IMG/VR virus record: IMGVR_UViG_3300020187_000015
Coordinates: 1 to 64,000 of that record
Origin: a virus
Reading direction: 5' to 3' (one strand)
Length of the DNA: 64,000 bases
Shown here: positions 10,444 to 50,128 of the stretch, piece after piece
How the letters are laid out: every line of letters begins with the position of its first letter
Position numbering within the stretch: position 1 is the first letter of the stretch
The notes under the pieces: model-generated
Seen by the model: the letters and a program-made list of their open reading frames with translations, nothing else
The model's database searches: none
Told to the model about the DNA's origin: nothing
Program-made: the position numbers and the translations under genes

Positions 10444-10460
10444 CTTGACAGAAAAAAGTT

Positions 10461-11521: not shown

Positions 11522-11543
11522 ACTATTTATTTGGTTGTAGGGT

Positions 11544-11690: not shown

Positions 11691-11713
11691 AGTATTTTTG
11701 GTTAGTTTGTGGT

Positions 11714-29958: not shown

Positions 29959-30050
29959 GATATTTTATATTAATTTAATTATTTTCCCGTAGGAGGAGCT
30001 ACTATTAGTTAGAGTTGCTTGTATCTATATTATATATATACACAAAAAAT

Positions 30051-33985: not shown

Positions 33986-33991
33986 AGCTTA

Positions 33992-34756: not shown

Positions 34757-34761
34757 ATAAA

Positions 34762-34770
34762 TATTTACAC
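34762..34770 (-). promoter_or_regulatory. putative late promoter motif GTGTA(A/T)(A/T)(T/A)A; also 23624, 30035, 35268, 44538, 46024 (-) and 60533 (+)
   Basis: Usually 0-8 nt before ATG of genes lacking a TTGAC promoter. Confidence 0.55.
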
Positions 34771-34775
34771 ATTTA

Positions 34776-35261
34776 TCAGCCTCTTCTGCCGCCAGGAGTG
34801 AAATAAAAACCTATTATCGCCCCAAGGGTGGTGATTGCGACCAAAGCGATGTGTCCCGTAGTAATGCTTGTGGTGATTTCTGCTCCACTTGGGAACTTAA
34901 TGAGTCCCCAGATAAGATTGATTTGCTCTTTACTTTCTGGAGGGGTAAAAGTAACGAGGGTTGTATTTGGGTATAAGGTGCAGAGTACTGAGATGACGAA
35001 AAAGTTGAGCATCCCCATAAAAGCAATGAGGCGGCGAGTAGTCCTAGTGAAAATACCAGTGTCTTTATCGGTTTCGCCAACGAGCATTTTTTGAAACTCA
35101 ATATCCATTTCACGAACCTGCATATCTCTAATAAGCTCTCTGCGCTCTTTGGCTGCTTTGGCTTCTGAAATCCCCTGAAAGGCGCCACCAACAATCTTAA
35201 GCATACTGCCCATGCCAGTCGCCCCAAGTGTAGATAGTAACATTGTGATAAGTCCAAACAT
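34776..35261 (-). CDS. holin-like membrane protein
   Basis: Three hydrophobic segments, R..I and IIGFYF end motif. Confidence 0.5.
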   Translation of the reverse strand: MFGLITMLLSTLGATGMGSMLKIVGGAFQGISEAKAAKERRELIRDMQVREMDIEFQKMLVGETDKDTGIFTRTTRRLIAFMGMLNFFVISVLCTLYPNTTLVTFTPPESKEQINLIWGLIKFPSGAEITTSITTGHIALVAITTLGAIIGFYFTPGGRRG

Positions 35262-35354
35262 ATAATGTATTTACACTTATTTGCAGACTTATTGTAATAT
35301 GTCATATATTTATGGGTTTTCTCAGTATTCTTTAAAATATAATTATCAAATATT

Positions 35355-35957
35355 TCACATCGTCTCCAAGAATTCTTTCCAATTCTCTTTGATTAATTCT
35401 TCGTCTTCAAATTTTTCTCTTTTTTCGTGCCACTCTGGATTAATCCATCCAACCTCGGCGTAATAACCTTTTCCCCTCGTATCTACGTATTCATCGTTGA
35501 GTTCTAGTTTTTCACCATTGTAGTAAAGGTCTTGAATAAATTCTCCAAAATCTGTTTCAATAACAGCAGCGGAAATAAGTTTTGAATCGAAATCTTCGGC
35601 TTCTAATTCCCAACTGCAAAAATCACCTTTCTCTGCGCTGTGAAAAATCATTACTGGAACTGAACCATGTTCAGAGTCAGTTATATAAGCTTCGCGGCTC
35701 ATAAGGCAACTTACTGGTATGTCCTCTTCAATCTCTACCTCTTCTCCATCCTTAATTTCGTAAGCGGTCAAATTAGAATCGGAATACATTCCAAAGACGT
35801 GTTCTAAATCAGCATCGTCGTAAAAGGTATCTAAAGCCTCTTCAATTAAGTCTGGATGTTCTTTGTTCGCCCATTTATTTACAAAATCTGCGTCTTTAGT
35901 GCAGAGTGCGTACTCGCCGCCATAACCAGCACCTACAATTTTAAATTTTCTTTTCAT
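35355..35957 (-). CDS. acidic hypothetical
   Basis: 200-aa ORF. Confidence 0.75.
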   Translation of the reverse strand: MKRKFKIVGAGYGGEYALCTKDADFVNKWANKEHPDLIEEALDTFYDDADLEHVFGMYSDSNLTAYEIKDGEEVEIEEDIPVSCLMSREAYITDSEHGSVPVMIFHSAEKGDFCSWELEAEDFDSKLISAAVIETDFGEFIQDLYYNGEKLELNDEYVDTRGKGYYAEVGWINPEWHEKREKFEDEELIKENWKEFLETM

Positions 35958-36107
35958 TTGTTATTTATAAATTTTTTAATATGTTTTTCTTTTATTTGCG
36001 ATTGTTTTATCTGGTTATATGTAGAGATATGTTCTTTAGGTAGCAAATTAACGCGCCCATCTTCAAATTTAATCAGGATATTATTCGCCCCAACAAAGTG
36101 TTTAAAT

Positions 36108-36368
36108 TTAATACTCATCTGGATCGACTTCAAATACTTCTCCGCCAGAGATTACATTTATATGGTATTCATCATGCCAAAACAATGCGTCGATAGCTTG
36201 TTGTACTTCGAGAGGAACATTATCGCGCTCGTCAAACTCGGTGTCAGCGGCATTACAATCTTCCACTCTGTAAGCTGTATATACTACGCCATCAACCTCC
36301 ACTACTAAAGTGTGAACAGTTTTCTGGTATGTTAATTCTGGGGGTTTTACTATTTTTACTTTTTTCAT
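36108..36368 (-). CDS. hypothetical
   Basis: ORF in small-gene block. Confidence 0.65.
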   Translation of the reverse strand: MKKVKIVKPPELTYQKTVHTLVVEVDGVVYTAYRVEDCNAADTEFDERDNVPLEVQQAIDALFWHDEYHINVISGGEVFEVDPDEY

Positions 36369-36392
36369 AATTTACATAATTTATCTTAGATT

Positions 36393-36587
36393 TTAAAAAT
36401 TGTCAAGTTTTTTTTGTTCTGCATTATTCTTTTTCCAAACTTTATGTTTATTATCAATTTCACTAGATAGGATCATTATTTTATGGTATGGCTTATACAT
36501 GATCCATGCCGTGCAGTCGTATCGCAAAAAGATCTTAGCGATCATGTCACCTGCCCAAAAGAGTATTAATGATGCTATTGTTCTCAT
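36393..36587 (-). CDS. hypothetical
   Basis: ORF in small-gene block. Confidence 0.6.
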   Translation of the reverse strand: MRTIASLILFWAGDMIAKIFLRYDCTAWIMYKPYHKIMILSSEIDNKHKVWKKNNAEQKKLDNF

Positions 36588-36588
36588 T

Positions 36589-36855
36589 TTACTCTACTTC
36601 GTATTTTGAACACTTATCGATACACTCCGTGAATGTATCTTCGAATCCGTCTTTATCATTATTCCAACCATTAAAACAATAATCAAATAACCAATCGTGA
36701 ATTTCAGTCTCATCCATACCTTCGATCCATTTCTCTTTCTTGACTTTAGCTACAAGCTTATCCAAATACTGGTCTTGAATCTTACCCAATTCTTGGATAA
36801 AATCTCCAGTCTTAAATGCTTCGTCGTCTAGTTCTGCTTTGATTTTTACTTTCAT
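36589..36855 (-). CDS. hypothetical
   Basis: ORF in small-gene block. Confidence 0.65.
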   Translation of the reverse strand: MKVKIKAELDDEAFKTGDFIQELGKIQDQYLDKLVAKVKKEKWIEGMDETEIHDWLFDYCFNGWNNDKDGFEDTFTECIDKCSKYEVE

Positions 36856-37115
36856 AATTGTTTGTGTATATCTTTTTTCGATTGCTGCCGTTCCTTTTTA
36901 CTTTGATCGCGCTTGCGCCACTTCAGATGTTTCCACCATTCGACCTTTTTTACTATCCAAGAGCGCGGCATAATTTTATAGTAATAGTGTGACAGACGCT
37001 ACGATAGTAATTCCAACTACCATTCCAGTCATAGGACTACCTAAAAAGTATCCAACGCAACCGCAGATCGCGATAAGTGCTAAGGGTTTAATATTCTCTG
37101 ATATATATTTCATAA

Positions 37116-37340
37116 TTATTTGTGTCTCGGTACTTTCTTATTTGCATCATCCATACCCATCGCTAACTCGAGAACCATACGCTCACTCCATCCAGCAAAC
37201 GGACCTCGCATAAAGACTTGAGTCAGTTCGTCAGGTTCGAATCTATCATACTTCTCAAGAGTCAACTTAACCCAATTGTCAGTCGCTTCTTGCCATGCAT
37301 TTTGTTTTTCTTCGTATTCATTCATACTAATTTCATCCAA
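37116..37340 (-). CDS. hypothetical
   Basis: ORF in small-gene block. Confidence 0.6.
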   Translation of the reverse strand: MDEISMNEYEEKQNAWQEATDNWVKLTLEKYDRFEPDELTQVFMRGPFAGWSERMVLELAMGMDDANKKVPRHK

Positions 37341-37621
37341 TCTGTTTTTTCATCCATTAGTTCAGTGCCATCTATTTCAAGTAATTGTTTAAGGATACCA
37401 TAGTTATTCATTCTAGTACCGTAACCTTCTTTGTGACACTTATAGACACTGCCGCTTTCGCCAATGAATAGCCAATGACCACCATCGTCTTTTACTTCAG
37501 AGATACCGCTATTAAGTTTCCAACTATCACCATCGAGATATCCACCGCTCCAGCCCGCAAGGACTTTATAGATTCCTTCTCCGACTTTTACTACTACCCA
37601 ATTGTCTGGTGTATTTTCCAT
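37322..37621 (-). CDS. conserved phage hypothetical
   Basis: PDNWV...YKVLAGWSGGYLDGDSWKLNSGI motif. Confidence 0.8.
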   Translation of the reverse strand: MENTPDNWVVVKVGEGIYKVLAGWSGGYLDGDSWKLNSGISEVKDDGGHWLFIGESGSVYKCHKEGYGTRMNNYGILKQLLEIDGTELMDEKTDWMKLV

Positions 37622-37625
37622 TTTA

Positions 37626-38171
37626 TTACTTTACTGTGAGATAGTAAGTACCCATTCTCGATTTATCGCGTTTGATCTTTATAACAGTTAAGCCTTCTAA
37701 CTCCTTATGAACTTTACTGAGATTTGTACCTACAGCAATATACGGTCCACCACTTGGGTCAACTGAGTCTAAGCTACCATCATCCTTTCGAGAACATCCA
37801 ACATGACCATCATCTTCAAAGGAATACTCAACACAATTCTTAGATATGATAGTGAATTTTCGTTCCTCATTGTATCGGCTTTTAACTACAACATCTGGCC
37901 ATCCAGCCCAACTACCTTGAATTGGATCAGAGACACCCGAAGACACTACATCTTCAGCAGAATCAAAATCAACTTCGATTTTATCATCTGGATAAAGATG
38001 CTCTGTCATTTCTCGACCTTTTTCAAAAAAGGACTCACCTACAGAATCTGGATGATACCCCGCGGCAACGCACAGACTGTACAACTTCTCGGTCAGGACA
38101 GTCATCCCCATTGAATCGTGTTTACTTTCGTATGTAACCTTTTCTTCGTAATGCTCTATTGTAATTTTCAT
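37626..38171 (-). CDS. hypothetical (VDPSGGP motif)
   Basis: 181-aa ORF. Confidence 0.7.
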   Translation of the reverse strand: MKITIEHYEEKVTYESKHDSMGMTVLTEKLYSLCVAAGYHPDSVGESFFEKGREMTEHLYPDDKIEVDFDSAEDVVSSGVSDPIQGSWAGWPDVVVKSRYNEERKFTIISKNCVEYSFEDDGHVGCSRKDDGSLDSVDPSGGPYIAVGTNLSKVHKELEGLTVIKIKRDKSRMGTYYLTVK

Positions 38172-38400
38172 AATTTATAGACAACTCAACCAGATACAGA
38201 GGCATACAAAAATGCACACTGAAAATACACCAATAGTAATCTTCTCGATTAATTCGAGCGAGCCGTCCTTGGTCCTTTGTTCGTTAAACGACTTTTTCAT
38301 AATTATTTCTTCTTCTCTGGATTAACATTAACTACCCACCACACAAATCTAGAGAATGCAGCAACTGAAACTACTGCGGTAATTATATATATTACTTCAC

Positions 38401-38661
38401 TCATAATCTTTCCTCAAATTCAAGTTGTATATTCAAAGATCTCATTGCATATTTAGCAACGTGATTCAATGCTTCCATATCTTCATACTCAACATATCGA
38501 TTCCCGATAGTTCTCATATAGCAACCTTCGTTGTCTTGCATGATCCAACAGAGAGTAATACAAGTTTCCCTGTCTAAGCTCTCGCTATAAGTCCAAGCAA
38601 CAATCTCGGCGCGGCGGTCCACGGTTGCTGGTCTAAATTCAACATCTTTATATCTCATCAT
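38401..38661 (-). CDS. hypothetical
   Basis: Start adjusted to MMRYKD. Confidence 0.6.
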   Translation of the reverse strand: MMRYKDVEFRPATVDRRAEIVAWTYSESLDRETCITLCWIMQDNEGCYMRTIGNRYVEYEDMEALNHVAKYAMRSLNIQLEFEERL

Positions 38662-38876
38662 GATTGTTTTATATTTACAGTCATTTCTTGTCCAGATTTT
38701 TTTTGATGGCCTTGTCAATCTTTGGAGTCACCAAATGACCGACATGATCGTTGTGGACAAGTGCGCCGCTTGAGCGTCCCATGAGTTTTCTCTTTGTTGG
38801 ATTCGGCGCTCTTAAATCAGCACCTGGTTTTGTTTTTTTAGACATACAACATATAATGCCTAAAATTTAATCAATG

Positions 38877-39113
38877 TCAACAAAAAAAGTTTGGTTTGCT
38901 GCTTTTTTCTTTATTAAGATAATTTTTTAAAATTAAATAAGCCTCTTGTATTGTTTTGGGCTTCCACTCTGGATTAACTTCACGCATTTCTGGGAGAGCT
39001 ATTTTCTCAAAATATGTTTTGCGCAAATCAGTTATTTCGCCAGATTCAACAAAAGATTCAAGCATACAATAAGTTGATTGAAGGTTTTTATGTGTTTTGT
39101 CCAAAGGTTTCAT
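38877..39113 (-). CDS. hypothetical
   Basis: ORF. Confidence 0.55.
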   Translation of the reverse strand: MKPLDKTHKNLQSTYCMLESFVESGEITDLRKTYFEKIALPEMREVNPEWKPKTIQEAYLILKNYLNKEKSSKPNFFC

Positions 39114-39279
39114 AGATAATAAACTCTGGTTGGTTATCTTTGGATTTGTACTTATTTGGGAAGACGGTTACTGGCATCTTCTTGCCATCAATAACGACGT
39201 ATCCAGCGAGATACTTGCCGTTTTTCCCATCTTTCTTCCAGAAAGCGCCGCGTTGTTGATCGGTCCATGTAGTATTCAT
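39088..39279 (-). CDS. DUF736-like small protein, leaderless
   Basis: GAFWKK..YLAG...N..K..NQP; TTGACA-N16-TATAAT-N7-ATG. Confidence 0.65.
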   Translation of the reverse strand: MNTTWTDQQRGAFWKKDGKNGKYLAGYVVIDGKKMPVTVFPNKYKSKDNQPEFIIYETFGQNT

Positions 39280-39310
39280 ATGTGCAATTATAGCACATAA
39301 AACAACGTTG

Positions 39311-39562
39311 TCAAGTTAAATTCTTCCAAGCATTTTCACAATGCTTTTTATCTCTAAATAAAAAATTAATAAATTTATAAAATTTTCCTCTTACTGGTAA
39401 ATTTAATTGTTGCCAGTAGCCACAGTAGGCAGAAAAAGTTAGATTAGCATTTAAGCCAAAAACCGAGGCTAGTCCTTGCGACACAGCCTCGGCTAAATTC
39501 CAATAGTAAGACTTACCTCTCGATTTCGAGGGGTCAGCTTTTATAGTTATTCTCATTACCAA
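39311..39562 (-). CDS. hypothetical (tail module)
   Basis: INxLF....HC..AW motif. Confidence 0.6.
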   Translation of the reverse strand: MVMRITIKADPSKSRGKSYYWNLAEAVSQGLASVFGLNANLTFSAYCGYWQQLNLPVRGKFYKFINFLFRDKKHCENAWKNLT

Positions 39563-40134
39563 ACAATAGCACTTAATTCTGCGAAACTAGTGGCGTTAGC
39601 GATTGCTTCGTTAAGTTCTTTTTCACGAGAAAATGCTGCCGACTTTCTTTGAATACCTTCCGAAATTGCTGTTTGAAACTGAGCCTTTGAAATTGTATTG
39701 TACGAACCATCGGCGTTCTTATAATCTGGGAAAGAGCCGCCGTCTGGCAGGATTTCGATAATTGTTTTTGTGTCGATGATGGTTTCTAGGTCGGCCTTAA
39801 ATTGAAAACCATCACTAGTCGTGAGAATAGAGTTGTATTCCGCATCTCTAGCTCTTTTAATCTCTGCAAACTTTCTAGATTTAAACATATCGGGATATTC
39901 AATAAATCTTTCTTCTCGTCGCTCCAGTCGTTTGATCTCCATCTTTTCTTGAAAAGTAACAACGTTATTGTTAATCAGGAAAAGTGGTTCGTCCGAAGAC
40001 TCAAAAGTTGCAGCCTTCGCATTCGAGATTTGAACGACTTCTTCAGAATTGGTATTATAAGAGCCATCTTCGTATGCATCTTCTTGCACTTCGATGATTC
40101 GTCTTGTTTCGATGTTAATTAGGGCGTTTTTCAT
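39556..40134 (-). CDS. DUF4376-like tail-fibre-associated protein
   Basis: C-terminal ...I.NATS..EL.AI.W. Confidence 0.65.
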   Translation of the reverse strand: MKNALINIETRRIIEVQEDAYEDGSYNTNSEEVVQISNAKAATFESSDEPLFLINNNVVTFQEKMEIKRLERREERFIEYPDMFKSRKFAEIKRARDAEYNSILTTSDGFQFKADLETIIDTKTIIEILPDGGSFPDYKNADGSYNTISKAQFQTAISEGIQRKSAAFSREKELNEAIANATSFAELSAIVW

Positions 40135-40931
40135 AATTCGTTGATCCAGTTAAATTTTTGGTTAAGTTGTTCTGAGAGTTGGCGGCCAAGTGTTTCGTGC
40201 CAATCTTTTTTTAGTGGTTTTACTTCTTGGCGAATAACATGGTCTCCATATGGGAAACCTACATCATTTTCTTTGGTGTATTGTTCTACGTTGGAAGTGT
40301 TGTGAACGAAAGGCTCTTCTCCAAGAAACTCCCATACATTATTCATTACACTTTGTGGGTCTTCTGTTAAGTCTTCAGCATGAATAAACATTAATTTATC
40401 ACCAAATCTTTCGGCAGCTTCATGTAATCTCTCGATTGCAATACCAATTGGAGGGCTTTGTAGCCAACCTTGAGCGCGTTTATCGATAGTTGTCCAGCTT
40501 TGTGGGTTTTGTTGCTCCACTCCGTTAAAAACTTCTGGGTGCTGCTGGCGTTTCTTTTCCATGCTGGAAAGAATGCCGCGTATATCGCGGACTGGCACAA
40601 GAACCTTTGCGTCTGGCCACACCTTAAAAAGTTGATCTAGGTGACCAATCCAAGAGCGGCACTTGTCTACAACTACAGGGCGGTCTGTGATACTATTAAA
40701 TGCGTTCTCACATCCAGCCTTAACGTAATCCAAATACATAGGCTCAAGAACTTTTTCCATATCCACTGCCTTTGCCTCTTCAGTCTGAAAGACTTGGCGA
40801 GCTATGTAGCCAATTTCGTGCAAGGCACTTGTTGGTGTAGCGTGGACCCTTGGGTTCTGCGCTAGAAGATTGCAGAGCAGCGTGGAGCAAGCTCTTGGAA
40901 GACCAGATACGAAGTGTAATTTTTTACTCAT
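40131..40931 (-). CDS. sulfotransferase family protein
   Basis: SGLPRACSTLL PAPS loop; VRD...S. Confidence 0.85.
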   Translation of the reverse strand: MSKKLHFVSGLPRACSTLLCNLLAQNPRVHATPTSALHEIGYIARQVFQTEEAKAVDMEKVLEPMYLDYVKAGCENAFNSITDRPVVVDKCRSWIGHLDQLFKVWPDAKVLVPVRDIRGILSSMEKKRQQHPEVFNGVEQQNPQSWTTIDKRAQGWLQSPPIGIAIERLHEAAERFGDKLMFIHAEDLTEDPQSVMNNVWEFLGEEPFVHNTSNVEQYTKENDVGFPYGDHVIRQEVKPLKKDWHETLGRQLSEQLNQKFNWINEL

Positions 40932-40965
40932 ATTATTATGGTGTATCTAATCCTTTAAAAGTCAA

Positions 40966-41982
40966 CTATAAATCAAAGAAAACTGTCAAACCTCCATATG
41001 TAGCTGGGTAAGTTGCTCCTACTGGAACGTGAATTGTTGAAGCCGCTACACCAGAAAACACATCAGAACCCAAGGCAGGAGCAGTTGTAGCTAGGCAGTT
41101 GATTGTAGCCAGGCTAGCGCAGTTATAGAATGCTTGACTCCCGATGCTGGTGACGCTGCTGGGAATGGTGATGCTCGCCAAGCTAGTGTTAATAAATAGT
41201 GTAGCCTCAATGCTTGTAAAGTCAACATTATTTGGGAGGGTAGCGCTTTCTAAGATACTGGAGTAACCGAATGCGTAAGACCCGATACTGGAGACGCTGT
41301 CAGGGATGATAATGCTCGTCAGGACGTTGCATCTACTGAATGCGCTAAAACCGATGCTGGTGAAGTTAACGTTATTTGGGAGGGTGACGCTCGTCAGGCT
41401 AGTGCAGTAATCGAATGCGTAAGACCCGATGCTGGTGACGCTGTCGGGAATCGTGACGTTCGTCAGGCCGCAGTTATAGAATGCTAGAGACCCGATGCTG
41501 GTGACGCTGTCTGGAATGGTGATGCTCGTCAGGGCGCTACAGTAAGCGAATGAGGAAGAATCGATGCTGGTGACGCTGTCGGGAATGGTGATGCTCGTCA
41601 GGCCAGAGCAGCTAACGAATGCGCCAGCCCCGATGCTGATCACGCTGTTGGGGATGGTGACGCTCGTCAGGCTGCTGCAGCTATTGAATGCGGAAGTCCC
41701 GAAGCTGGTGACGTTACTTCCAATGTAGATGCTAGTTAATGTCGTGTTACCATCATAACCATCTAAATCAGTAATAGTTGTAAGATTTCTAGTCTGTGTT
41801 ACGCCAGCCTGAATATCTGTAGTGAATGGCACAATAGATTCCTTTTCCGCATCACTCAGAGGAAGATCTGCCAACTTAATCTTTTTGGTCTGATTTAGGT
41901 CGCTGTCTACTAGTGGTAGCACATCGATTGCTGGATCAGCTGAAGTTAGTTCTGTTAGTTGTGATATTTTTTTGTCTGCCAT
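40966..41982 (-). CDS. BspA-type leucine-rich-repeat protein 1 (putative virion adhesin)
   Basis: ~10 IPDSVTSIGxxAFxxCxxL repeats; MADKKISxL N-domain shared with paralogues. Confidence 0.9.
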   Translation of the reverse strand: MADKKISQLTELTSADPAIDVLPLVDSDLNQTKKIKLADLPLSDAEKESIVPFTTDIQAGVTQTRNLTTITDLDGYDGNTTLTSIYIGSNVTSFGTSAFNSCSSLTSVTIPNSVISIGAGAFVSCSGLTSITIPDSVTSIDSSSFAYCSALTSITIPDSVTSIGSLAFYNCGLTNVTIPDSVTSIGSYAFDYCTSLTSVTLPNNVNFTSIGFSAFSRCNVLTSIIIPDSVSSIGSYAFGYSSILESATLPNNVDFTSIEATLFINTSLASITIPSSVTSIGSQAFYNCASLATINCLATTAPALGSDVFSGVAASTIHVPVGATYPATYGGLTVFFDL

Positions 41983-41994
41983 GATTTTTAAAGA

Positions 41995-43827
41995 TTAAAT
42001 TATATTAACGGTTACGTTTGCGTTTCCACCAATATTCAGGCCAGATCCAGCTGTCCAACCAAGTCCAGCTAGTACATTTATAGTAAGAGGAGATGCCGTG
42101 CCGAGGAAAATATTAATTGCGTTGTCTATAACAGTTTTATCTACATTGCAGTTAATTGTATTTAGTAGATTACAACCCTGAAAAGCTCTCTCTCCTATGC
42201 TGCCGACACTAATAGGAATTTCAACAGTTGTCAAAACATCAAGATTGCGGAATGCGTATGAACCGATAGTCGTTACTGTAGTGGGTATGGTCAAACTCAG
42301 TAAAGATCTAAGTTCAGCAAATGTGAATTGCTCAATGGTAGTAAAGCCAGTGTTGCTTGGGAGGGTGAGACTTTCTACCCTGTCACAGCCTTGGAATGCT
42401 CTTAGTTTGATGGTGGAAACGCTGTCTGGGATGGTGATGCTCGTAAAGTCGCAGTTTTGGAATGCGCCTCTACCGATGCTGGTGACGCTGTTGGGAATGG
42501 TGACGCTCGACAGGCTAGTGCAGTTATAGAATAAGTAATCTTCGATGCTGGTGAAGCCAACATTATTTGGAAGAGTGGCGCTCGCGAGGTCAGTGCAGTT
42601 TTGAAATGCGCTATTCCCGATGCTGGTGACACTGTCGGGAATGATAATGCTCGTCAGGCTTTTGCAGTTGTCGAATGCATTCGCCCCGATAGTTTCGACG
42701 CTGTCGGGAATGTTGATGCTCGTCAGGCTGCTGCAGTTATCGAATGTGAACTCCCCGATGCTGGAGACGCTGTTGGGGATGGTGACGCTCGACAGGCTAG
42801 TGCAGCCAAGGAATGCGTAATCCCCGATGGTTTCGACGCTGTCGGGAATGACGATACTTGTAAGAAATACGCAAATGCCGAACGTATCTCCCGCAATCGA
42901 GGTAAACGCAGGATTATTTGGAAGCTTGATACTCGTTAGCGCAGAATAATAAAACGCAAAACTCCCAATGGTGGTGACACTATCAGGAATGGTGACGCTC
43001 GTCAGGCTGCTGCACCGATAGAATGCGCTAAACCCGATGCTGGTGACGCTGTCGGGAATGGTGACGATCGTCAGGCTGCTGCAGACAGAGAATGTGTTAT
43101 TCTCGATACTGGTGAAATTGTTATTATTTGGAAGTGTGACGCTCGCGAGGTCAGTGCAGCGATAGAATGCCGCAGACCCGATAGTTTCGACGCTGTCGGG
43201 AATGACGATACTCGTCAGGCTAGTGCAGAAATCGAATGCGGAATCCGCGATGCTGGTGACGCTATTGCCGATGGTTGCGCTCGCGAGGCTAGTGCAGCCA
43301 CGGATTGCGCGATCCCCGATGGTTTCGACGCTGTCGGGAATGACGATACTTGTAAGAGATATGCAACCGCCGAACGTATCTTGCTCAATCGAGGTAAACG
43401 CAGGATTATTTGGAAGCTTGATACTCGTTAGCGCAGAATAATAAAACGCAAAACTCCCGATAGTGGTGACACTATCAGGAATAAAAACGCTCTGATTTGT
43501 TAAATTAGCTCCTGCAAAATTGCTATTGCTAAACGCCGCCGATCCAATGCTAGTTACATTAGTCCCAATATAAATGCTGTCTGGTTGATACGTATTGTAA
43601 AACCCATCCGAATTACTAATAGTTGTAAGATTTCTAGTTTGCTCCACGCCAGCCTGAATATCTATCGTGTATGGGTATGCGGTATCTTCAGAGGCATCAC
43701 TAAGCGGAAAGTTGGCTAATTTAATTTTTTTAGTTTTACTTTCGCTGGAGTCTACAACTGGTAAAAAATCTACTGCCGAGTCTGCTGAAGTTATTTCTGT
43801 GAGGTCTGATATTTTTTTGTTTGCCAT
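41995..43827 (-). CDS. BspA-type LRR protein 2 (~20 repeats)
   Basis: Same architecture; internal 197-bp duplication. Confidence 0.9.
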   Translation of the reverse strand: MANKKISDLTEITSADSAVDFLPVVDSSESKTKKIKLANFPLSDASEDTAYPYTIDIQAGVEQTRNLTTISNSDGFYNTYQPDSIYIGTNVTSIGSAAFSNSNFAGANLTNQSVFIPDSVTTIGSFAFYYSALTSIKLPNNPAFTSIEQDTFGGCISLTSIVIPDSVETIGDRAIRGCTSLASATIGNSVTSIADSAFDFCTSLTSIVIPDSVETIGSAAFYRCTDLASVTLPNNNNFTSIENNTFSVCSSLTIVTIPDSVTSIGFSAFYRCSSLTSVTIPDSVTTIGSFAFYYSALTSIKLPNNPAFTSIAGDTFGICVFLTSIVIPDSVETIGDYAFLGCTSLSSVTIPNSVSSIGEFTFDNCSSLTSINIPDSVETIGANAFDNCKSLTSIIIPDSVTSIGNSAFQNCTDLASATLPNNVGFTSIEDYLFYNCTSLSSVTIPNSVTSIGRGAFQNCDFTSITIPDSVSTIKLRAFQGCDRVESLTLPSNTGFTTIEQFTFAELRSLLSLTIPTTVTTIGSYAFRNLDVLTTVEIPISVGSIGERAFQGCNLLNTINCNVDKTVIDNAINIFLGTASPLTINVLAGLGWTAGSGLNIGGNANVTVNII

Positions 43828-43839
43828 TGTGGGTTTACT

Positions 43840-44532
43840 TTATATTATGTTAACGGTCACGTTTGTGTTTCCGCCAATTGTTTGGCCAGGTCCAGCTGTC
43901 CAACCCAGTCCAGATGGCGCGTTTATAGTAAGAGGAGATGCCGTGCCATTGAAAACATTATCTAGGCCATTTATAATAGAAAAATCTACATTGCAGTTAA
44001 TTGTCGCTAAGTTAACGCAATTACGAAAAGCGTTATCCCCAATACTAGTCACACTGCTGGGAATGGTTAAGCTGTTCAGGACATTGCAGTTTTGAAGTGC
44101 GCTAACCCCGATGCTGGTAACGCTGTCTGGAATATTGATACTTTGGATAGCGAAGCAGAGCCGAAATGCATTTTGATCGATACTTGTGATACCGTTAGCG
44201 ATGGTTACATCCGTCAGGGCATCGCAACGAATGAATGCGGATTGCCCGATGCTGGGAACATTGCTCCCAATATAGATACTAGTTAAAGTAGTGTCATCGC
44301 CGTAATACTGATTGTAAGTCAACGGAGCAGTAATATTTCGTGTTTGCTCCACAGTGCCGTGAAAGTCTGTAGTATACGTATACACATGGTTTTTAGCCGA
44401 ATCGCTCAGTGGCAAATTACTAAATCTAATCTTTTTGGTCTCATCTGCGCTGGTATCTACAACAGGTAAGAGGTCAGTTGCTGCGTCAGCTGAAGTTAGT
44501 TCCGTAAGTTCTGATATTTTTTTGTCCGCCAT
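43840..44532 (-). CDS. BspA-type LRR protein 3 (~4 repeats)
   Basis: Same N-domain; C-cap similar to protein 2. Confidence 0.9.
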   Translation of the reverse strand: MADKKISELTELTSADAATDLLPVVDTSADETKKIRFSNLPLSDSAKNHVYTYTTDFHGTVEQTRNITAPLTYNQYYGDDTTLTSIYIGSNVPSIGQSAFIRCDALTDVTIANGITSIDQNAFRLCFAIQSINIPDSVTSIGVSALQNCNVLNSLTIPSSVTSIGDNAFRNCVNLATINCNVDFSIINGLDNVFNGTASPLTINAPSGLGWTAGPGQTIGGNTNVTVNII

Positions 44533-44559
44533 AGTATTTATTACACTATAATTTATAGG

Positions 44560-44940
44560 TTAATCTATAATACTAGCAAAATCATTTTCTAAGTTAGTCT
44601 TTGGCTTATCTTCAACGTGCTTATTACCTACTTCTTTTTCATATTTTTCAAAATATGATTTTTTGACTGGATCATATCCAAGCCTCTCTTCTCTTTCTAT
44701 GCTAAGCTCTTTAGAGTAGTCCAACATATCTCCATATGTGCCTTTCATTTTTCCAGTCTTATCAGTAAAAGCCACTTTGTCGAAGGCATCGATTTTACTA
44801 TGGGTACTGAAGTTTATTGGGGTATAAGATCTATCCCATTTTAAGCCGTCCTCATCATGAAAAACATGTTCATCGTTGACCGATTGAATTAACTCAATAT
44901 ACTCTTCTCTTTCTGGATGTTTGTAAATGTATTCTGGCAT
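44560..44940 (-). CDS. FmdB-like hypothetical
   Basis: MPxYxY start without Cys. Confidence 0.55.
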   Translation of the reverse strand: MPEYIYKHPEREEYIELIQSVNDEHVFHDEDGLKWDRSYTPINFSTHSKIDAFDKVAFTDKTGKMKGTYGDMLDYSKELSIEREERLGYDPVKKSYFEKYEKEVGNKHVEDKPKTNLENDFASIID

Positions 44941-44978
44941 AATACATTATGCTATAGTTTTAACCTTATTCCAATTAT

Positions 44979-46016
44979 TTAAGATATAATATCCTTAACG
45001 CTTTCTCCAGACTCCCACATTCTGCAGGACCAGTAGCGAGCTTTATATTTTGGACCAGGATTTGTATCGCACTTATGCCTAGCTCTAAATGACTTTCTGC
45101 GATCTGGATCATCTCTCTTTATTTCCATATTAGGATCTCCGAAATTAACCTTTACTACATTCCCCTTTTCGTTTTTAACATAAACCGAAAACTTCTTTGG
45201 ACCCTTTGGTGTTCTGAATGGTTTATTCAATTTGACACCCTTTTTTAATTCAGCCGCAAAAGTAAAAGAGTCAACTTCTTTTCCATCTCTATCCAAATCA
45301 TCGTCACAATCGCTAGACATTATACTCTTTGGTTTATTGTAAGAAGCATCATGAGAATCATTTTCGTTAAACCATTTTTGGAAAACGTCTTCGCTTGATC
45401 CTGGAAAATACATAGGAGTTCCGTCAGCCATTTCGTCTGTGTGAATTTCGCCCTTAAAACCAATTTGAATTGATTTTTTTCTTGCGCCTTCTGGAGTGGA
45501 AAAAATATAATCTTCCATTCCAGCTTTACACTTCGCCGCACCATTATGATCAGAGTCTTTCATTAATTTGCCATCAGGCATATAGTGATAACCTTCAGGA
45601 GCTTCTTTGGAGGCTTTTTTGGGTCTACCATCTTTTCCAGAAGGACCAGACATTGGGTGGCTCTTTGGCAATAAATCAGTGTCGTGTTTTCCACTTTTGT
45701 ATTTTAAATTTCTTAATGCATGCAAGAAGGAATTGACTCGCGCCATAGCCCATTGCTGCGAGCTTTTTACGCTTGGTCTAACACTCTGAGGGTTTGTTCG
45801 ATAGGCTCCAACCCCTCTTTTGTATACCGCTTCTAGTTTAGAGAGGGTAACTCTCTTTCTTTTGTCGTCTCCGAATTTTTCATTGTGTTCTTTTACCTTC
45901 TTTTTCAAGGATTCTGCAAGAGACGCTTCACTCATCTCTATAAAGCATAGCTCATCTTCTGAGAAAGATACTTCCATTATTTGTTTTCCGTTTTTTAAAA
46001 AATTACGAATGTCCAT
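44979..46016 (-). CDS. multi-domain conserved phage protein
   Basis: VYKRGVGAY..QWAMARVNSF and KPFRTPKGPKKFSVYVK...RKSFRARHKC modules; start MDIR after GTGTATAAT. Confidence 0.7.
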   Translation of the reverse strand: MDIRNFLKNGKQIMEVSFSEDELCFIEMSEASLAESLKKKVKEHNEKFGDDKRKRVTLSKLEAVYKRGVGAYRTNPQSVRPSVKSSQQWAMARVNSFLHALRNLKYKSGKHDTDLLPKSHPMSGPSGKDGRPKKASKEAPEGYHYMPDGKLMKDSDHNGAAKCKAGMEDYIFSTPEGARKKSIQIGFKGEIHTDEMADGTPMYFPGSSEDVFQKWFNENDSHDASYNKPKSIMSSDCDDDLDRDGKEVDSFTFAAELKKGVKLNKPFRTPKGPKKFSVYVKNEKGNVVKVNFGDPNMEIKRDDPDRRKSFRARHKCDTNPGPKYKARYWSCRMWESGESVKDIIS

Positions 46017-46043
46017 AGTAGGTATTATACACAATAATATTGC

Positions 46044-46072
46044 AAAAAAGAAAGGCCTTCCCGAAGGAAGGC
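46044..46072 (-). terminator. intrinsic terminator
   Basis: GGCCTTCC-TTCG-GGAAGGCC plus T-run. Confidence 0.85.
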
Positions 46073-46078
46073 CATCAA

Positions 46079-46285
46079 TTATACTACAGCAAGACTCTTG
46101 ATTGAGTTTCGATGGACTTTAATTTCTCCACGCTTTCCAGAGAAGCGATCAAAGATTACGAATGTTTCTCCGATAGATTTAACTTTACCCATAAAGCATT
46201 CGGAAACTTTAGAATTTTGTAGACTTACTCTCATAAATTTACCGCGGGACTTTGTTACTTTTGATTTAATAGTACTTGTATTCAT
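46079..46285 (-). CDS. small basic hypothetical (Sm/SH3-like size)
   Basis: Coupled to upstream GT. Confidence 0.6.
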   Translation of the reverse strand: MNTSTIKSKVTKSRGKFMRVSLQNSKVSECFMGKVKSIGETFVIFDRFSGKRGEIKVHRNSIKSLAVV

Positions 46286-47397
46286 TATATTTTTATTAGT
46301 TCTAGTATTTCGTCACAGAATTTTGCATCTGTGAACTGAGATGGTAGCTTTTTGCCGCCTTCATTAATTTTCCCATCAAGGACATTTTTAACGGCAGAAT
46401 CTAATGAAGTAGACATATTTTCTATATCTAAATCATAAATATTTCCGCAATTAAATGGAGACCCCTGTTGAAAGAAAAGATTATCGATTGCTGAAATTTT
46501 ACCATTAGGAGCCACTTTAATAGAATTACTATCAGTTGCCCACTCTTTAATTCCAGAATTAAAATTAACTACACATTGCTTGCCGAGTCCAGCCATATGG
46601 AAAGAAGGTAGAGACCAAGATTCTCCACCGCTTCCATCAACAACAATGTCTGCAATATTATATGCTTGATTCAACTCCGTTAACTTTCTAAAGTAGGGCA
46701 TAAAGATCATGTTATGGGGAACATCTCCATCACAAGCCTCGACTACTTTCATTTTGTTTATCTCCATAGATTTATTCGGGTCTTGATGGAAAAAGGGATT
46801 GAATATATGAAGATGTATCTTGAATCTCTTATCATTCCCAAATTTATTTTTTAACAAATTAATGATACTAGCAGTATGCTTTCTTTTTTCAAATTTGCCA
46901 GCTAAAGCAATTACAATTTCATTATTTTCATACTTTTTAACTTCAGTCTCTTTAAAAGCAAGGGAGTTGTAACCCAAGTTAATTGTTTTGTGGTTATCAA
47001 CTCCATATTCTTTGCAGACCTCTTCCGTGAAAGAACAAGGTGATGCAACTTTGTCATAGGAGTTCAAAATATTTTTTTCAGTCGCAGTAAGTTGATCTAG
47101 CTCATGGAAAAAATAAAGGAAGGGGTTTTTACTGATTGAATCTTGAGAGCCATTGATGTGCCAAATTCTCAAGGACGGTTCAGTTCTCTTGAAGTCTTTC
47201 AATGATTTTTGAGTACACAATTGCAACCAAGCCATGAACTGTTCAGGAATGATATCTTCATAAGAAGATAGATCTATTCCAGCTATTGGAAAAATATTAG
47301 GCTCCAGCTTTCTAGAGAATAGCTCATATAGAAGATTGGTAGATACTTGACCTAAGCTAGTGCCATTAATGGGGACCTGCAAACTAAAATTACTCAT
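46285..47397 (-). CDS. GT-B glycosyltransferase (GT4-like)
   Basis: GKFEKRKH, SGGESWSLP motifs. Confidence 0.75.
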   Translation of the reverse strand: MSNFSLQVPINGTSLGQVSTNLLYELFSRKLEPNIFPIAGIDLSSYEDIIPEQFMAWLQLCTQKSLKDFKRTEPSLRIWHINGSQDSISKNPFLYFFHELDQLTATEKNILNSYDKVASPCSFTEEVCKEYGVDNHKTINLGYNSLAFKETEVKKYENNEIVIALAGKFEKRKHTASIINLLKNKFGNDKRFKIHLHIFNPFFHQDPNKSMEINKMKVVEACDGDVPHNMIFMPYFRKLTELNQAYNIADIVVDGSGGESWSLPSFHMAGLGKQCVVNFNSGIKEWATDSNSIKVAPNGKISAIDNLFFQQGSPFNCGNIYDLDIENMSTSLDSAVKNVLDGKINEGGKKLPSQFTDAKFCDEILELIKI

Positions 47398-47914
47398 TAT
47401 TTAAAATCTGTTTATATCTATCTAAAATTCTATTGTACTTTTGACGAATCCATTCGCCAGAATATTTGTTATTCATGTCTTTAGCTATCTCTGAAAATGT
47501 CATTCCTGACAACCTTTTTTCTAAAATTTCTCTATTTTCTTTATTTTGAATATCATTTTCAACATAACTCAATAACTCCCTTTTACCGTAATTGGGCATG
47601 TGTACTAAGTGGTTATCCTCTATTTCTACGAAATACTTCTTTGAGCTGCAAAGGCTCTGACATGTCCAAAATGCTTTATTGCCTATCCAGGTTGAGAATT
47701 TGCTCCTACTAACATCAAATTCTTTTGCAGCATCATAAAAAAAACTTAAAGGATTTTCTTTTAAATCTTCAATCTCCATTATTCCAGAGTAAGCATTGGC
47801 CTTTTTATAAAAGATTCCGCTGTGCCGCTCTTGTAACTCTTTCAAACAGTTATTTACGTCAATACCATTTTTTATATTTTCAGTAAGCTCTAAATCAGAT
47901 AAATCATCAATCAT
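47390..47914 (-). CDS. sigma70-like factor (regions 2 and 4)
   Basis: AAKEFD..RSKFSTW and TFSEIAK...SGEWIRQ; leaderless start 47914. Confidence 0.7.
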   Translation of the reverse strand: MIDDLSDLELTENIKNGIDVNNCLKELQERHSGIFYKKANAYSGIMEIEDLKENPLSFFYDAAKEFDVSRSKFSTWIGNKAFWTCQSLCSSKKYFVEIEDNHLVHMPNYGKRELLSYVENDIQNKENREILEKRLSGMTFSEIAKDMNNKYSGEWIRQKYNRILDRYKQILNNE

Positions 47915-47992
47915 TCCTCCTAATATACTACAAATAAAACAAATGTCAATAAAAAGTTGACTTTTTTGCAAGATATTTTATATGTTTGATAA

Positions 47993-48286
47993 ATGGAAGA
48001 TATAAAACAACCTAAACGTGCGTGGAAAGGGACTTGGATACCTAAAAATATCTGGGAGAACGAACAACTAACTTGGATGGAAAAATGCATCTGGGCAGAA
48101 ATCTTCAATCTGGATGATGATGATCGAGGTGGATGCTGGGCATCGAATGCTTTTTTGGCGAAAAAATTTAACACCAGTCCTCAAACCATAACCAATACAA
48201 TATGCAAACTAAAAAAGCTTAAATTACTTAAGCAAGTAGCCTTTGATGGGAGGCAAAGAGTGCTAAAATCTACCTATTTAGACTAA
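47993..48286 (+). CDS. winged-HTH protein, replication-initiator N-terminal type
   Basis: WIP..IW...L...EK, GCWASNAFLA; at strand switch. Confidence 0.7.
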   Translation: MEDIKQPKRAWKGTWIPKNIWENEQLTWMEKCIWAEIFNLDDDDRGGCWASNAFLAKKFNTSPQTITNTICKLKKLKLLKQVAFDGRQRVLKSTYLD

Positions 48287-48328
48287 ACCTATAGGTTTAC
48301 TCTGACCAAACCCTATGGTTTACCATAG
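48284..48328. promoter_or_regulatory. palindromes TAAACCTATAGGTTTA and CTATGGT-TT-ACCATAG
   Basis: Perfect 16-bp palindrome at HTH stop, followed by an AT-rich tract. Confidence 0.45.
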
Positions 48329-48429
48329 AATAAAGGATAAAATAAAGATTTATTTCTAAAGAAATAAATAAGAAAACGAGTTTTCTAAAAAAGAATTGTT
48401 TTTAAATCATAATATGACTATAAAAGTTT

Positions 48430-49272
48430 ATGGAAGATTTTACAGATAAGATAACGATTGGGATTCTTGACTTTTTTCAAGAGAAAGAGTCAAAGGAACT
48501 GCTAATGTCCTTAGCTGAAAATCTTTTGATAGATGTTAACATTCTTTTTATCGACAACGGAACTCCAAAAAGTTATAGTAAACAGTTCCTGAATGATGGA
48601 CTAATTGATGAGTTAATTATAAACGATAGTAATCTTGGCTGTGGCCCAGCTACCGTTCAAATGTATGATTATTGCAAAACTCCATATTTGATATACGTCC
48701 AAAGCGATCAAAGGCTAAATCAAAAGATTGACGCAGATTCAATGAATGGGATGATTAGAGCTTTGGACGAATACCACTGCATTGACTTGGCTGGAAATCA
48801 AGGGAATGGAAAATTCTCAGAAAGAGCTAATATGATGAAAACGGAATTCTATAAAAGAATTCCAAAACCTACTTTAGGTGGACCAGGAATCACAAATGAT
48901 CAAAAGTATGTAGAGGAATGGGTTCAAGATTTTTTTGCAGACAATAATTGCGTTATAGCTCATGTTAGGCCAACAGTATTTTCTGACGAAGGTTATTACT
49001 CAGTAAGAGAATTGTCACAAGAAGACCCTTGCATTTTAAAACATTCTTGCTGGACCAAGGAGATGTGGATTCTTACTGACCCCCCGAAGAATAGGCATGA
49101 GGTTTATCCACCTCTTAACGAAGAGGAGTGGGATAGATTGATAAAAGGAGATTTTCCTAGGTGGAAAAACAACGAAAGGGGCTATGTACCAGAGGCTTGG
49201 AGAGACAACATTATTACCAATGAAATCGTGGAATCAAAAATTAGAGAAGACATAAAAAATGACACCGATTAA
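48430..49272 (+). CDS. GT-A glycosyltransferase-like
   Basis: IDNG, NLGCG, YVQSD. Confidence 0.6.
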   Translation: MEDFTDKITIGILDFFQEKESKELLMSLAENLLIDVNILFIDNGTPKSYSKQFLNDGLIDELIINDSNLGCGPATVQMYDYCKTPYLIYVQSDQRLNQKIDADSMNGMIRALDEYHCIDLAGNQGNGKFSERANMMKTEFYKRIPKPTLGGPGITNDQKYVEEWVQDFFADNNCVIAHVRPTVFSDEGYYSVRELSQEDPCILKHSCWTKEMWILTDPPKNRHEVYPPLNEEEWDRLIKGDFPRWKNNERGYVPEAWRDNIITNEIVESKIREDIKNDTD

Positions 49273-50128
49273 AAATAAAATTTGGCTATGCGGACTTACT
49301 TATGGCCCAGCTATTGAAGCCGTAAAAAATAACATTATCCCTATTGCTAAGCATTTCGATGGATTGAATATTGTTCTCCATAAGAGTGGACCAATCCTAA
49401 CTGAACAGGAAAGCCAGTTATTTAGCATACTAAATGAAAATAGGGGACAAGGTAAAATTCATATTTTCGATTGGATTAGAAGATATGATTTTTCTAGGAA
49501 TAGATATTTGTTTGACCCATTAATGAATTCTGGAGACTTCTTTGTAGTTTTAGACTCGTTGGAAAATATGACAGAAAATTTCTGTACAACAGATCTTCCG
49601 AAGATTAGAAAATCAATGGTAGACAATGACCTTGAGGGAGTCTTTCTTCATGGCAAGGGTTTTATTTTTAGAAAAAACGAATGGATGAAATATGAAAACG
49701 GAACTCATGAATGCATCAGACCCATGAATAGAGCTGCTGAGCTTACGCAGATTGCGGGCTATGAAGACAGTTCAAAATACTTCACAAACACTAGGCCAAA
49801 CAAGAGAGAAAAACTTCATTTTGTAGAACACTTTTTTAGATATTATCTAATCGATAACACTATGCAGTGCTATTTAGGCACTGAGAAAGATGAAGGACTT
49901 ACTAGAATTAGGTTAGAGAATAGACATGATTTTAGAAATCATCTGTTAAGCAAAGGAGTTGAATTCAATTACGAATCAGTCCTTGAGTTCTTTGAGCAGG
50001 ACATAGATCAAGATACTAAAGATCTTATCAATAAAGAAAAAATTCTTAATGACTTCTATAGAAATAAAATACTAGGTGAAGTAGACATTTTAGATAATCA
50101 CGATTACGAAAACATAAAGCCTATATGA
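49259..50128 (+). CDS. GT2-like glycosyltransferase
   Basis: DFSRN, LDSLE, THE motifs. Confidence 0.55.
   Translation: MTPIKNKIWLCGLTYGPAIEAVKNNIIPIAKHFDGLNIVLHKSGPILTEQESQLFSILNENRGQGKIHIFDWIRRYDFSRNRYLFDPLMNSGDFFVVLDSLENMTENFCTTDLPKIRKSMVDNDLEGVFLHGKGFIFRKNEWMKYENGTHECIRPMNRAAELTQIAGYEDSSKYFTNTRPNKREKLHFVEHFFRYYLIDNTMQCYLGTEKDEGLTRIRLENRHDFRNHLLSKGVEFNYESVLEFFEQDIDQDTKDLINKEKILNDFYRNKILGEVDILDNHDYENIKPI

What the first reader, a model, noticed from the sequence alone, without database searches (positions are those of the whole stretch)
41100..43480. BspA-LRR repeats have a DGR-like codon signature: hypervariable positions 1-2 with fixed third base
Seen: across 19 repeats read by hand in two genes, the consensus is ATC GGG NNT NNC GCA TTC NNT NNC TGC. 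The four variable codons encode many amino acids yet end in T (16/19), C (15/19), T (16/19) and C (17/19). One repeat retains AAT AAC. The repeats are visibly more GC-rich than the rest of the phage. Known: diversity-generating retroelements mutate adenines of AAY template codons and give this pattern. Against it: the silent A of the GCA-position codon is invariant, and no RT or template repeat is in the window. Inference: either a non-canonical templated hypermutation acting on tandem LRR modules, or VLR-like module shuffling with strong diversifying selection, possibly on repeats taken from the host.
Basis: partly seen in the sequence, partly recalled or inferred. Interest (0 to 1): 0.72.

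Follow-up and report, generated by a model that had tools for sequence, protein, structure and literature searches.

The report
Phage LRR tail fibres, no DGR
Three neighbouring genes of an uncultured marine phage encode tail-fibre-like proteins with a leucine-rich-repeat binding part, in which four exposed residues per repeat change very fast; this fits ordinary mutation, repeat duplication and strong selection, not a mutagenic retroelement.

Summary
The codon pattern is real but weaker than reported and not diagnostic. In 33 repeats of three genes (40966-44532, minus strand) the four variable codons end T, C, T, C in 61-67% of cases. The T/C alternation is significant (Fisher 5e-11).

The third bases of these codons are no better conserved than synonymous sites of the framework. 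Y-ending codons are 80% at variable codons and 73% at framework codons.

The DGR reading fails every test I could run:
- There is no reverse transcriptase and no template copy in the ~115 kb circle, closed with a relative, nor an RT in four related records.
- Thirteen framework adenines per unit are as conserved as C, G and T.
- 21% of variable codons end in A or G.
- Near-identical phages have identical variable codons.
- Contigs from metagenomes of 2014-2025 carry the repeats at about 98-100% identity.

What is there: three paralogous tail-fibre-like proteins with BspA-type LRR arrays. Repeat number differs between close relatives. Positions 1-2 of the variable codons evolve 2-4 times faster than synonymous sites between orthologues, and are near saturation between young paralogous units.

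The closest cellular homologues are secreted BspA proteins of marine Puniceicoccaceae (48-51% identity).

This scan has met the same signature in other phages, with the same verdict.

The parts
43840..44532 (-). LRR tail-fibre paralogue 1 (230 aa): N-terminal anchor motif, 4 BspA-type repeats, C-terminal cap shared with the 610-aa gene
   Evidence: ORF. Pfam LRR_5 E 9e-28. Clean 1:1 orthologues in L012, L007 and L006.
41995..43827 (-). LRR tail-fibre paralogue 2 (610 aa): same N-terminal motif and 20 repeats
   Evidence: ORF. LRR_5 E 8e-128. Repeats listed.
40966..41982 (-). LRR tail-fibre paralogue 3 (338 aa): same N-terminal motif, 9 repeats, and a C-terminal cap that to my eye resembles that of the bacterial Puniceicoccaceae BspA protein
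   Evidence: ORF. LRR_5 E 5e-83. PDB 4FS7 E 4e-69. AlphaFold2 block-mean pLDDT 56-94 (mostly above 70) over residues 91-338, with one short strand per repeat. Bacterial protein sequence; the two caps were not aligned or scored.
41083..41715 (-). LRR array of the 338-aa gene (69-nt units); GC3 0.68
42148..43560 (-). LRR array of the 610-aa gene; GC3 0.56
43978..44262 (-). LRR array of the 230-aa gene; GC3 0.47
43252..43491 (-). First copy of an internal block duplication in the 610-aa gene (offset 164 codons). 25 of 240 nt differ from the second copy, mostly nonsynonymous, with several two-base changes in variable codons.
   Evidence: codons.
42760..42999 (-). Second copy of the internal block duplication
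41773..41982 (-). N-terminal ~70 aa of the 338-aa gene, starting with the motif MADKKISxLTE..LP(L/V)VD..TKKI. The same motif starts the other two genes (43618-43827, 44323-44532). It heads many phage proteins with tail-fibre or tail-spike matches, so it is the presumed virion anchor.
   Evidence: GC3 0.29-0.38, like the rest of the phage.

Best explanation
The three genes are paralogous receptor-binding (tail-fibre-like) proteins of an uncultured marine phage. Each joins a conserved N-terminal virion-anchor motif to a BspA-type LRR solenoid.

The arrays grow and shrink by duplication and unequal recombination of 69-nt units. Units within a lineage therefore share a young common framework, including its synonymous third bases. 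That shared ancestry produces the lineage-specific NNT NNC .. NNT NNC look.

Four residues per repeat (x1, x2, x3, x4 around the buried A-F), which I infer to be exposed, are then changed in place by ordinary point mutation. These changes are fixed by strong diversifying selection for new binding specificities, so positions 1-2 saturate while the third base drifts only at the synonymous rate. The excess of Y-ending codons reflects the binding-surface residues used (Ser, Asn, Tyr, Asp, Gly), plus inheritance.

Shown here: the fold family, the anatomy, the rate contrasts, the absence of RT and template, and stability across samples. Inferred: the tail-fibre role, the selection agent (host receptor variation), and Puniceicoccaceae as the host.
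For: Family and anatomy:
- LRR_5 hits and PDB relatives.
- The N-terminal motif heads proteins with tail fibre, tail spike or virion-structural PHROG matches (five of the six scanned).

Third bases behave like the framework:
- Diversity is 0.35-0.58 at variable-codon third positions and 0.20-0.58 at framework third positions.
- They are lineage-specific together with framework codons: ATC/GCA/TTC lineages against ATT/GCT/TTT lineages.

Young paralogous units:
- Framework third positions differ 4-15% and variable-codon third positions 16-20%, but positions 1-2 of variable codons differ 56-70%.

Orthologues change gradually:
- G000 against L007: flanks 7.6%, framework third positions 20%, variable positions 1-2 42%, variable third positions 18%.
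- G000 against L012: 12% against 37%.
- In clean 1:1 orthologues of the 230-aa gene, 2-4 of 16 variable codons are replaced against 3-5 of 81 framework codons, with repeat order kept.
- Genomes with identical flanks have no differences at variable codons (0/280, 0/94).

Array structure and population:
- Repeat numbers differ between close relatives: 230/610/338, 230/556/198 and 230/354/1187 aa. There is also an internal block duplication.
- The longer contig pieces from metagenomes of 2018, 2021 and 2025 match the arrays at about 98-100%; the 2014 run is mostly short, more divergent pieces. Of the 40 best-supported variant places, 5 fall on the 278 variable position-1/2 sites and 8 on the 1212 framework position-1/2 sites.

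Amino acids:
- 40% of variable residues are N, D, Y, F, H or C, which have Y-ending codons only. K, M and W are absent.
Against: - The rate contrast between young paralogous units is very large: over 10-fold after correction for multiple hits. Several recent differences are two-base changes within one codon. Selection alone explains this only if it is very strong, so a mutational contribution cannot be excluded from sequence alone.
- Only assembled contigs could be laid, not raw reads, so low-frequency variation would be missed.
- Some orthologue alignments inside the repeats may pair paralogous units and inflate the rates.
- The high GC3 of the arrays (up to 0.68) exceeds that of the Puniceicoccaceae homologues (0.50-0.51) and is not explained.
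- No formal codon-site model was run.
Confidence: 0.8

Rival explanations
1. A diversity-generating retroelement, or another templated adenine-directed hypermutation, rewrites AAT/AAC codons in each LRR module.
For: Most variable codons are NNT or NNC, with a position-specific third base. One repeat has AAT AAC. Two-base changes occur within single codons of a recent duplicate. Many IMG/VR contigs end inside the arrays.
Against: - No RVT_1 match in G000 (105.8 kb) or in G001-G004. G001 bridges the end and start of G000, so the whole ~115 kb circle is covered.
- No unit-like copy outside the three genes, by nhmmer on G000 and on the gap region.
- 13 framework adenines per unit are conserved at 0.79, like C 0.77, G 0.68 and T 0.88. 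The silent A of GCA is conserved at 0.89.
- 28 of 132 variable codons end in A or G.
- Near-identical genomes have no differences at variable codons. The repeats are stable in contigs of 2014-2025.
- The same pattern is seen in chromosomal bacterial BspA genes.
- The papers my search returned describe DGR variable proteins as C-type-lectin fold (abstracts). That known targets are C-type-lectin or Ig-like folds and not LRR is from my own knowledge.
Confidence: 0.03
2. The diversity at the variable codons is old and is moved around by recombination: cassette exchange between phages, or between phage and host, with population-level module shuffling. The framework is kept uniform by gene conversion. 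Little is created by new point mutation.
For: - Repeat number and the middle modules differ between close relatives.
- The arrays are more diverged than the flanks and align as mosaics.
- L003 has an LRR stretch nearly identical to L004, L005 and L011 although the flanks differ 3-5%, which points to lateral exchange.
- Some contigs join distant repeats, but on short sides.
- The F. psychrophilum LRR locus shows recombination of this kind (PMC10392669).
Against: - Third bases of variable codons track the framework clock: 0.16-0.20 in the youngest bins, rising with framework divergence. Import of old codons would not give this.
- Modules at both ends of the arrays, and all four modules of the 230-aa gene, keep their order and differ by single residue changes.
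- No silent donor cassettes exist in the genome.
Confidence: 0.12
3. There is no positive selection. The four positions are simply unconstrained and evolve neutrally, while synonymous sites are held by codon or nucleotide-level constraint.
For: In the bacterial orthologues L081 and L082, positions 1-2 of variable codons (13.1%) match framework third positions (12.5%).
Against: In the phage, positions 1-2 exceed the third position of the same codon 2-3 fold between orthologues and over 3 fold between young paralogues. The T/C changes at those third positions are synonymous. The arrays' C-rich third bases run against the phage's own usage (GC3 0.33), so codon selection is unlikely to hold them.
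Confidence: 0.05

Closest known systems
Diversity-generating retroelements (Bordetella phage BPP-1 Mtd/TR/bRT type)
   Same: A phage receptor-binding protein in which a few codons vary at their first two bases, mostly giving NNY codons.
   Different: No RT, no template repeat and no adenine specificity. The fold is LRR, not C-type lectin or Ig. There are many tandem modules instead of one variable region. The variable codons are stable between near-identical genomes and across samples.
Tandem locus of cell-surface LRR proteins of Flavobacterium psychrophilum (Altae-Tran et al. 2020, PMC10392669, which cites Duchaud et al. 2007)
   Same: Several adjacent genes with a conserved N-terminus, a variable number of ~22-23-residue LRR units, hypervariable positions on one face, and strain-to-strain differences in repeat number caused by recombination.
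   Different: Those are bacterial secreted T9SS proteins with gene fragments between them. Here the N-terminus is a phage tail-fibre motif, there are only three genes, and no fragments lie between them.
BspA-type LRR proteins (Pfam LRR_5; PDB 4FS7, 4GT6, 4FDW, TpLRR 6MLX, PcpA 4CP6)
   Same: The repeat family and fold are the same: E 4e-69 to 4FS7 and LRR_5 scores far above the cut-off.
   Different: Those are cellular surface or secreted proteins. Here the LRR is fused to a phage fibre N-terminus. The closest cellular relatives are secreted proteins of marine Puniceicoccaceae at 48-51% identity.
Lamprey variable lymphocyte receptors
   Same: LRR modules with a conserved framework, hypervariable positions and a variable module number.
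   Different: VLRs are assembled somatically from silent flanking cassettes. Here there are no silent cassettes, and the arrays are inherited stably.

Membership tests
Diversity-generating retroelement | Reverse transcriptase (RVT_1 type) encoded in the element | tested here: not met
   No PF00078 match at E <= 0.001 in G000 or in relatives G001-G004. The positive controls matched. G001 covers the ~9.5 kb missing from G000.
Diversity-generating retroelement | A template repeat nearly identical to the variable region | tested here: not met
   nhmmer with a model of the 69-nt unit finds hits only inside the three genes of G000, and none in the gap region of G001.
Diversity-generating retroelement | Variation restricted to positions that are adenine in the template | tested here: not met
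   The 13 framework consensus-A sites per unit are conserved at 0.79, like C, G and T. 28 of 132 variable codons end in A or G, which AAY cannot give.
Diversity-generating retroelement | Variable region differs between closely related genomes or populations | tested here: not met
   0/280 and 0/94 differences at positions 1-2 of variable codons between genomes with identical flanks. The longer metagenome contig pieces of 2018-2025 are about 98-100% identical. Only contigs were available, so rare variants are not excluded.
BspA-type LRR (Pfam PF13306 LRR_5) | Match to the family model above the curated cut-off | tested here: met
   275.7, 420.5 and 97.2 bits against a cut-off of 27.7.
BspA-type LRR (Pfam PF13306 LRR_5) | Solenoid fold related to solved BspA-type structures | tested here: met
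   phmmer E 4e-69 to 4FS7 and further hits. The AlphaFold2 model has one short strand per repeat and block-mean pLDDT 56-94 (mostly above 70) across the LRR part.
Phage tail fibre / receptor-binding protein | Conserved N-terminal virion-attachment module joined to exchangeable C-terminal binding domains | tested here: met
   The N-terminal ~40-aa motif heads dozens of IMG/VR proteins with unrelated C-termini. Four of six scanned matched tail fibre or tail spike PHROGs, and a fifth matched tail spike and virion-structural families.
Phage tail fibre / receptor-binding protein | Presence in the virion and binding to a host receptor | not testable with these tools
   This needs proteomics of virions or adsorption assays.
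VLR-like somatic cassette assembly | Silent, incomplete donor cassettes flanking an incomplete germline gene | tested here: not met
   All repeat-like sequence lies in three intact ORFs. There are no non-coding copies.

The most novel reading that the evidence does not exclude
The saturation of positions 1-2 of four codons per repeat, between units whose synonymous sites differ by only 4-15%, is produced by an unknown targeted mutational process. This process would have no RT, would not be adenine-specific, and would act on LRR modules of phage receptor-binding proteins. That could explain why the same signature recurs in unrelated phage LRR genes.
Probability: 0.04. Interest if true: 0.85.

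Novelty: new member of a known kind. Interest (0 to 1): 0.3.

Why it matters
It removes a false DGR lead. It also shows how a DGR-like NNY look arises without a retroelement: young, duplicated LRR units inherit their third bases, and selection rewrites the first two bases of a few codons that I infer to be exposed.

It adds a documented case of BspA-type LRR arrays used as phage tail-fibre tips. This phage is widespread in marine metagenomes (17 studies, 2014-2025). Its nearest cellular relatives are in Puniceicoccaceae, which suggests a host and a possible exchange of adhesin modules between phage and host.

The very high substitution rate at the four positions makes these genes good material for studying phage-host arms races and for natural repeat-protein binder libraries. 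The kind of system is already known.

Tried and rejected
- megablast of window 30000-50000 against the GenBank phage collection gave no match, so no annotated relative was available.
- The PHROG hits of the three proteins are families of unknown function.
- The literature search for BspA, phage and tail fibre found nothing directly relevant.
- The joints between distant repeats in metagenome contigs have short sides (20-48 nt) and were laid at 90% likeness. I treat them as unreliable hints of other module orders, not as evidence.
- Parts of the stretch without cover in run X9 say nothing.
- Codon bias alone is rejected as an explanation of T/C/T/C, because the same amino acid uses different codons at different positions.
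- Gene conversion of the framework with old variable codons retained is rejected as the main process, because the third base of the variable codons follows the framework clock.
- A recent transfer from the Puniceicoccaceae genes is rejected. Amino-acid identity is only 48-51% and the framework codons differ: TCG ATT GGA against AGC ATC GGG.
- I did not compute where the four residues lie on the model, because no coordinates are returned. Their exposure is inferred from the A-F-C core pattern and from the modelling in PMC10392669.
Full report
**Anatomy**

The stretch lies in three adjacent minus-strand genes: 43840-44532 (230 aa), 41995-43827 (610 aa) and 40966-41982 (338 aa). All three start with the same ~70-residue N-terminus (MADKKISxLTE..LPVVD..TKKI). 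They continue with BspA-type leucine-rich repeats (Pfam LRR_5, E 9e-28, 8e-128, 5e-83).

The closest solved structures are BspA-type LRR proteins: 4FS7 at E 4e-69, then 4GT6, 4FDW, TpLRR 6MLX and PcpA 4CP6. An AlphaFold2 model of the 338-aa protein gives one short strand per 23-residue repeat. Confidence is moderate to high in the LRR part, and the N-terminus is unstructured in isolation.

The N-terminal motif heads dozens of IMG/VR proteins with unrelated C-termini. Of six scanned against PHROGs, four matched tail fibre or tail spike families and a fifth matched tail spike and virion-structural families. I therefore read the three genes as paralogous tail-fibre-like receptor-binding proteins. 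That role is inferred, not shown.

The window is the first 64 kb of a 105.8-kb IMG/VR virus record. The sequence is held at near-identity by marine and estuary metagenomes of 17 studies.

**The observation**

I parsed 33 repeats with the motif S-I-G-x1-x2-A-F-x3-x4-C. The variable codons end in T (21/33), C (20/33), T (22/33) and C (21/33).

The alternation is significant: x1+x3 give T43/C5 and x2+x4 give T15/C41 (Fisher 5e-11). It is not plain codon bias, because Tyr is TAT 7/7 at x3 and TAC 5/5 at x2 (p 0.0013). The pattern is therefore real.

It is not special to the variable codons, however:
- Diversity among in-register units is 0.35-0.58 at their third positions and 0.20-0.58 at framework third positions.
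- 28 of 132 variable codons end in A or G.
- 80% of variable codons end in Y, against 73% of framework codons.
- 40% of the variable residues are N, D, Y, F, H or C, which have no other choice of third base.

**The DGR test**

- No RVT_1 reverse transcriptase is found in six-frame searches of G000 or of four related records of 52-113 kb. The control genomes scored.
- One relative, G001 (92-97% identical), runs from the start of G000 across a ~9.5-kb gap to the end of G000. The genome is thus a circle, or circularly permuted, of about 115 kb, and all of it has been searched.
- A profile of the 69-nt unit finds copies only inside the three genes, and none in the gap region.
- The 13 framework positions per unit whose consensus is A are as conserved (0.79) as C (0.77), G (0.68) and T (0.88). 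The silent A of GCA is at 0.89.
- Genomes with identical flanks have identical variable codons (0/280, 0/94 sites).
- Contigs of four metagenomes from 2014, 2018, 2021 and 2025 cover most of the arrays. The longer pieces of the 2018-2025 runs are about 98-100% identical; the 2014 run gives mostly short, more divergent pieces. Of the 40 best-supported variant places, 5 fall on the 278 position-1/2 sites of variable codons, 8 on the 1212 framework position-1/2 sites and 6 on the 606 framework third positions. This is a mild enrichment, not scrambling.

These were contigs, so rare variants could be missed.

**What drives the pattern**

Third bases are lineage-specific together with the framework. 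G000, L001, L006, L007 and L013 use ATC GGG NNT NNC GCA TTC NNT NNC TGC. L021 and L023 use ATT GGG NNT NNT GCT TTT NNT NNT TGC. The units of one lineage therefore share a recent ancestor.

Between the most similar unit pairs in G000:
- framework third positions differ by 4-15%;
- third positions of variable codons differ by 16-20%;
- positions 1-2 of variable codons differ by 56-70%, close to saturation.

Because the third base of the variable codons follows the framework clock, the changes at positions 1-2 arose in place and were not imported with old codons.

Between orthologues the change is gradual:
- G000 against L007: flanks 7.6%, framework third positions 20%, variable positions 1-2 42%, variable third positions 18%.
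- G000 against L012: 12% against 37%.
- In the clean 1:1 orthologues of the 230-aa gene, 2-4 of 16 variable codons are replaced against 3-5 of 81 framework codons, with repeat order kept.

Repeat number differs between close relatives: 230/610/338, 230/556/198 and 230/354/1187 aa. The 610-aa gene holds an internal block duplication, 43491-43252 against 42999-42760, with 25 of 240 nt different, mostly nonsynonymous.

The best reading is duplication and unequal recombination of units, plus strong diversifying selection at four residues per repeat that I infer to be exposed. The size of the contrast between young paralogues, and the two-base changes within single codons, leave a small room for a mutational contribution that sequence alone cannot exclude.

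**Controls and relatives in cells**

The best matches in one genome per prokaryote species are two marine Puniceicoccaceae (51% and 48% identity, E 2e-114 and 4e-110). Gut Bacteroides and others follow at 38% or less.

The Puniceicoccaceae gene encodes a 733-aa protein whose N-terminus looks like a signal peptide. It sits in an ordinary chromosomal neighbourhood (ParA-type ATPase, FAA hydrolase). Its repeats show the same look (TCG ATT GGA NNT NNT GCA TTC .. NNC TGC) and a similar, weaker paralogue contrast. Between the two bacterial orthologues, however, the variable positions evolve at about the synonymous rate (13.1% against 12.5%).

Old arrays in a gut Bacteroides and an Oscillospiraceae genome are saturated everywhere and show no such contrast. 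The signature thus marks young BspA arrays in general, in cells as well as phages.

**Comparison with the known**

Tandem loci of LRR surface proteins with hypervariable positions and recombination-driven changes in repeat number are described for Flavobacterium psychrophilum (PMC10392669). The papers my search returned describe DGR variable proteins as C-type-lectin fold (abstracts). That LRR is not a known DGR target fold is from my own knowledge.

This scan has noted the same DGR-like look in LRR genes of several other phages, and follow-up agents reached the same verdict. I did not use those notes as evidence.

**Verdict**

This is a new member of a known kind and of moderate to low interest.

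Still unexplained is the high GC3 of the arrays (0.47 in the four-repeat gene, 0.56 and 0.68 in the two long arrays), against 0.23-0.38 in the N- and C-termini of the same genes and 0.33 for the genome.

Noticed in passing
window 1-12000 and G000 99248-105788; L080 (G001:8001-28000): A related 83-kb record bridges the end and the start of this 105.8-kb record with a ~9.5-kb gap. The genome is therefore circular or circularly permuted, at about 115 kb, and this record is about 92% complete rather than the 62% estimated by CheckV.
   Followed up: yes
window 41083-41715, 42148-43560, 43978-44262: Composition breaks sharply inside the genes. The LRR arrays have GC3 0.47-0.68, the N- and C-termini of the same genes 0.23-0.38, and the genome median is 0.33. 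This exceeds even the Puniceicoccaceae homologues (0.50-0.51). Possible causes are a founder effect of the amplified unit, a GC-richer donor, or GC-biased conversion.
   Followed up: partly
L081:2857-5058 and L082:2199-4403: Chromosomal, apparently secreted BspA-type proteins of two marine Puniceicoccaceae genomes are the closest cellular relatives (48-51% identity). By eye, their C-terminal cap resembles that of the 338-aa phage protein. This is a candidate host lineage and a possible exchange of adhesin modules.
   Followed up: partly
L026-L079 (IMG/VR loci): The N-terminal ~40-residue motif MADKKISQLT..(I/V)VD..ETKKI heads dozens of phage proteins of 190-910 aa with unrelated C-termini, several with tail fibre or tail spike matches. 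It looks like a widespread fibre-anchor module.
   Followed up: partly
L005, L009, L013, L014, L015, L018, L019: Many related IMG/VR contigs end inside the LRR arrays, and Logan contigs also break there. The repeats are assembly breakpoints, so repeat numbers in short-read assemblies should be treated with care.
   Followed up: no
L003 against L004, L005 and L011: The LRR stretch is nearly identical (0-1 differences in ~450 nt) although the adjoining flanks differ by 3-5%. This suggests lateral exchange of LRR genes between related phages.
   Followed up: no
window 40131-40931 and 39556-40134: Directly downstream of the LRR genes lie a sulfotransferase gene (Sulfotransfer_3, E 2e-16) and a DUF4376 protein with a weak tail-fibre PHROG match.
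   Followed up: no
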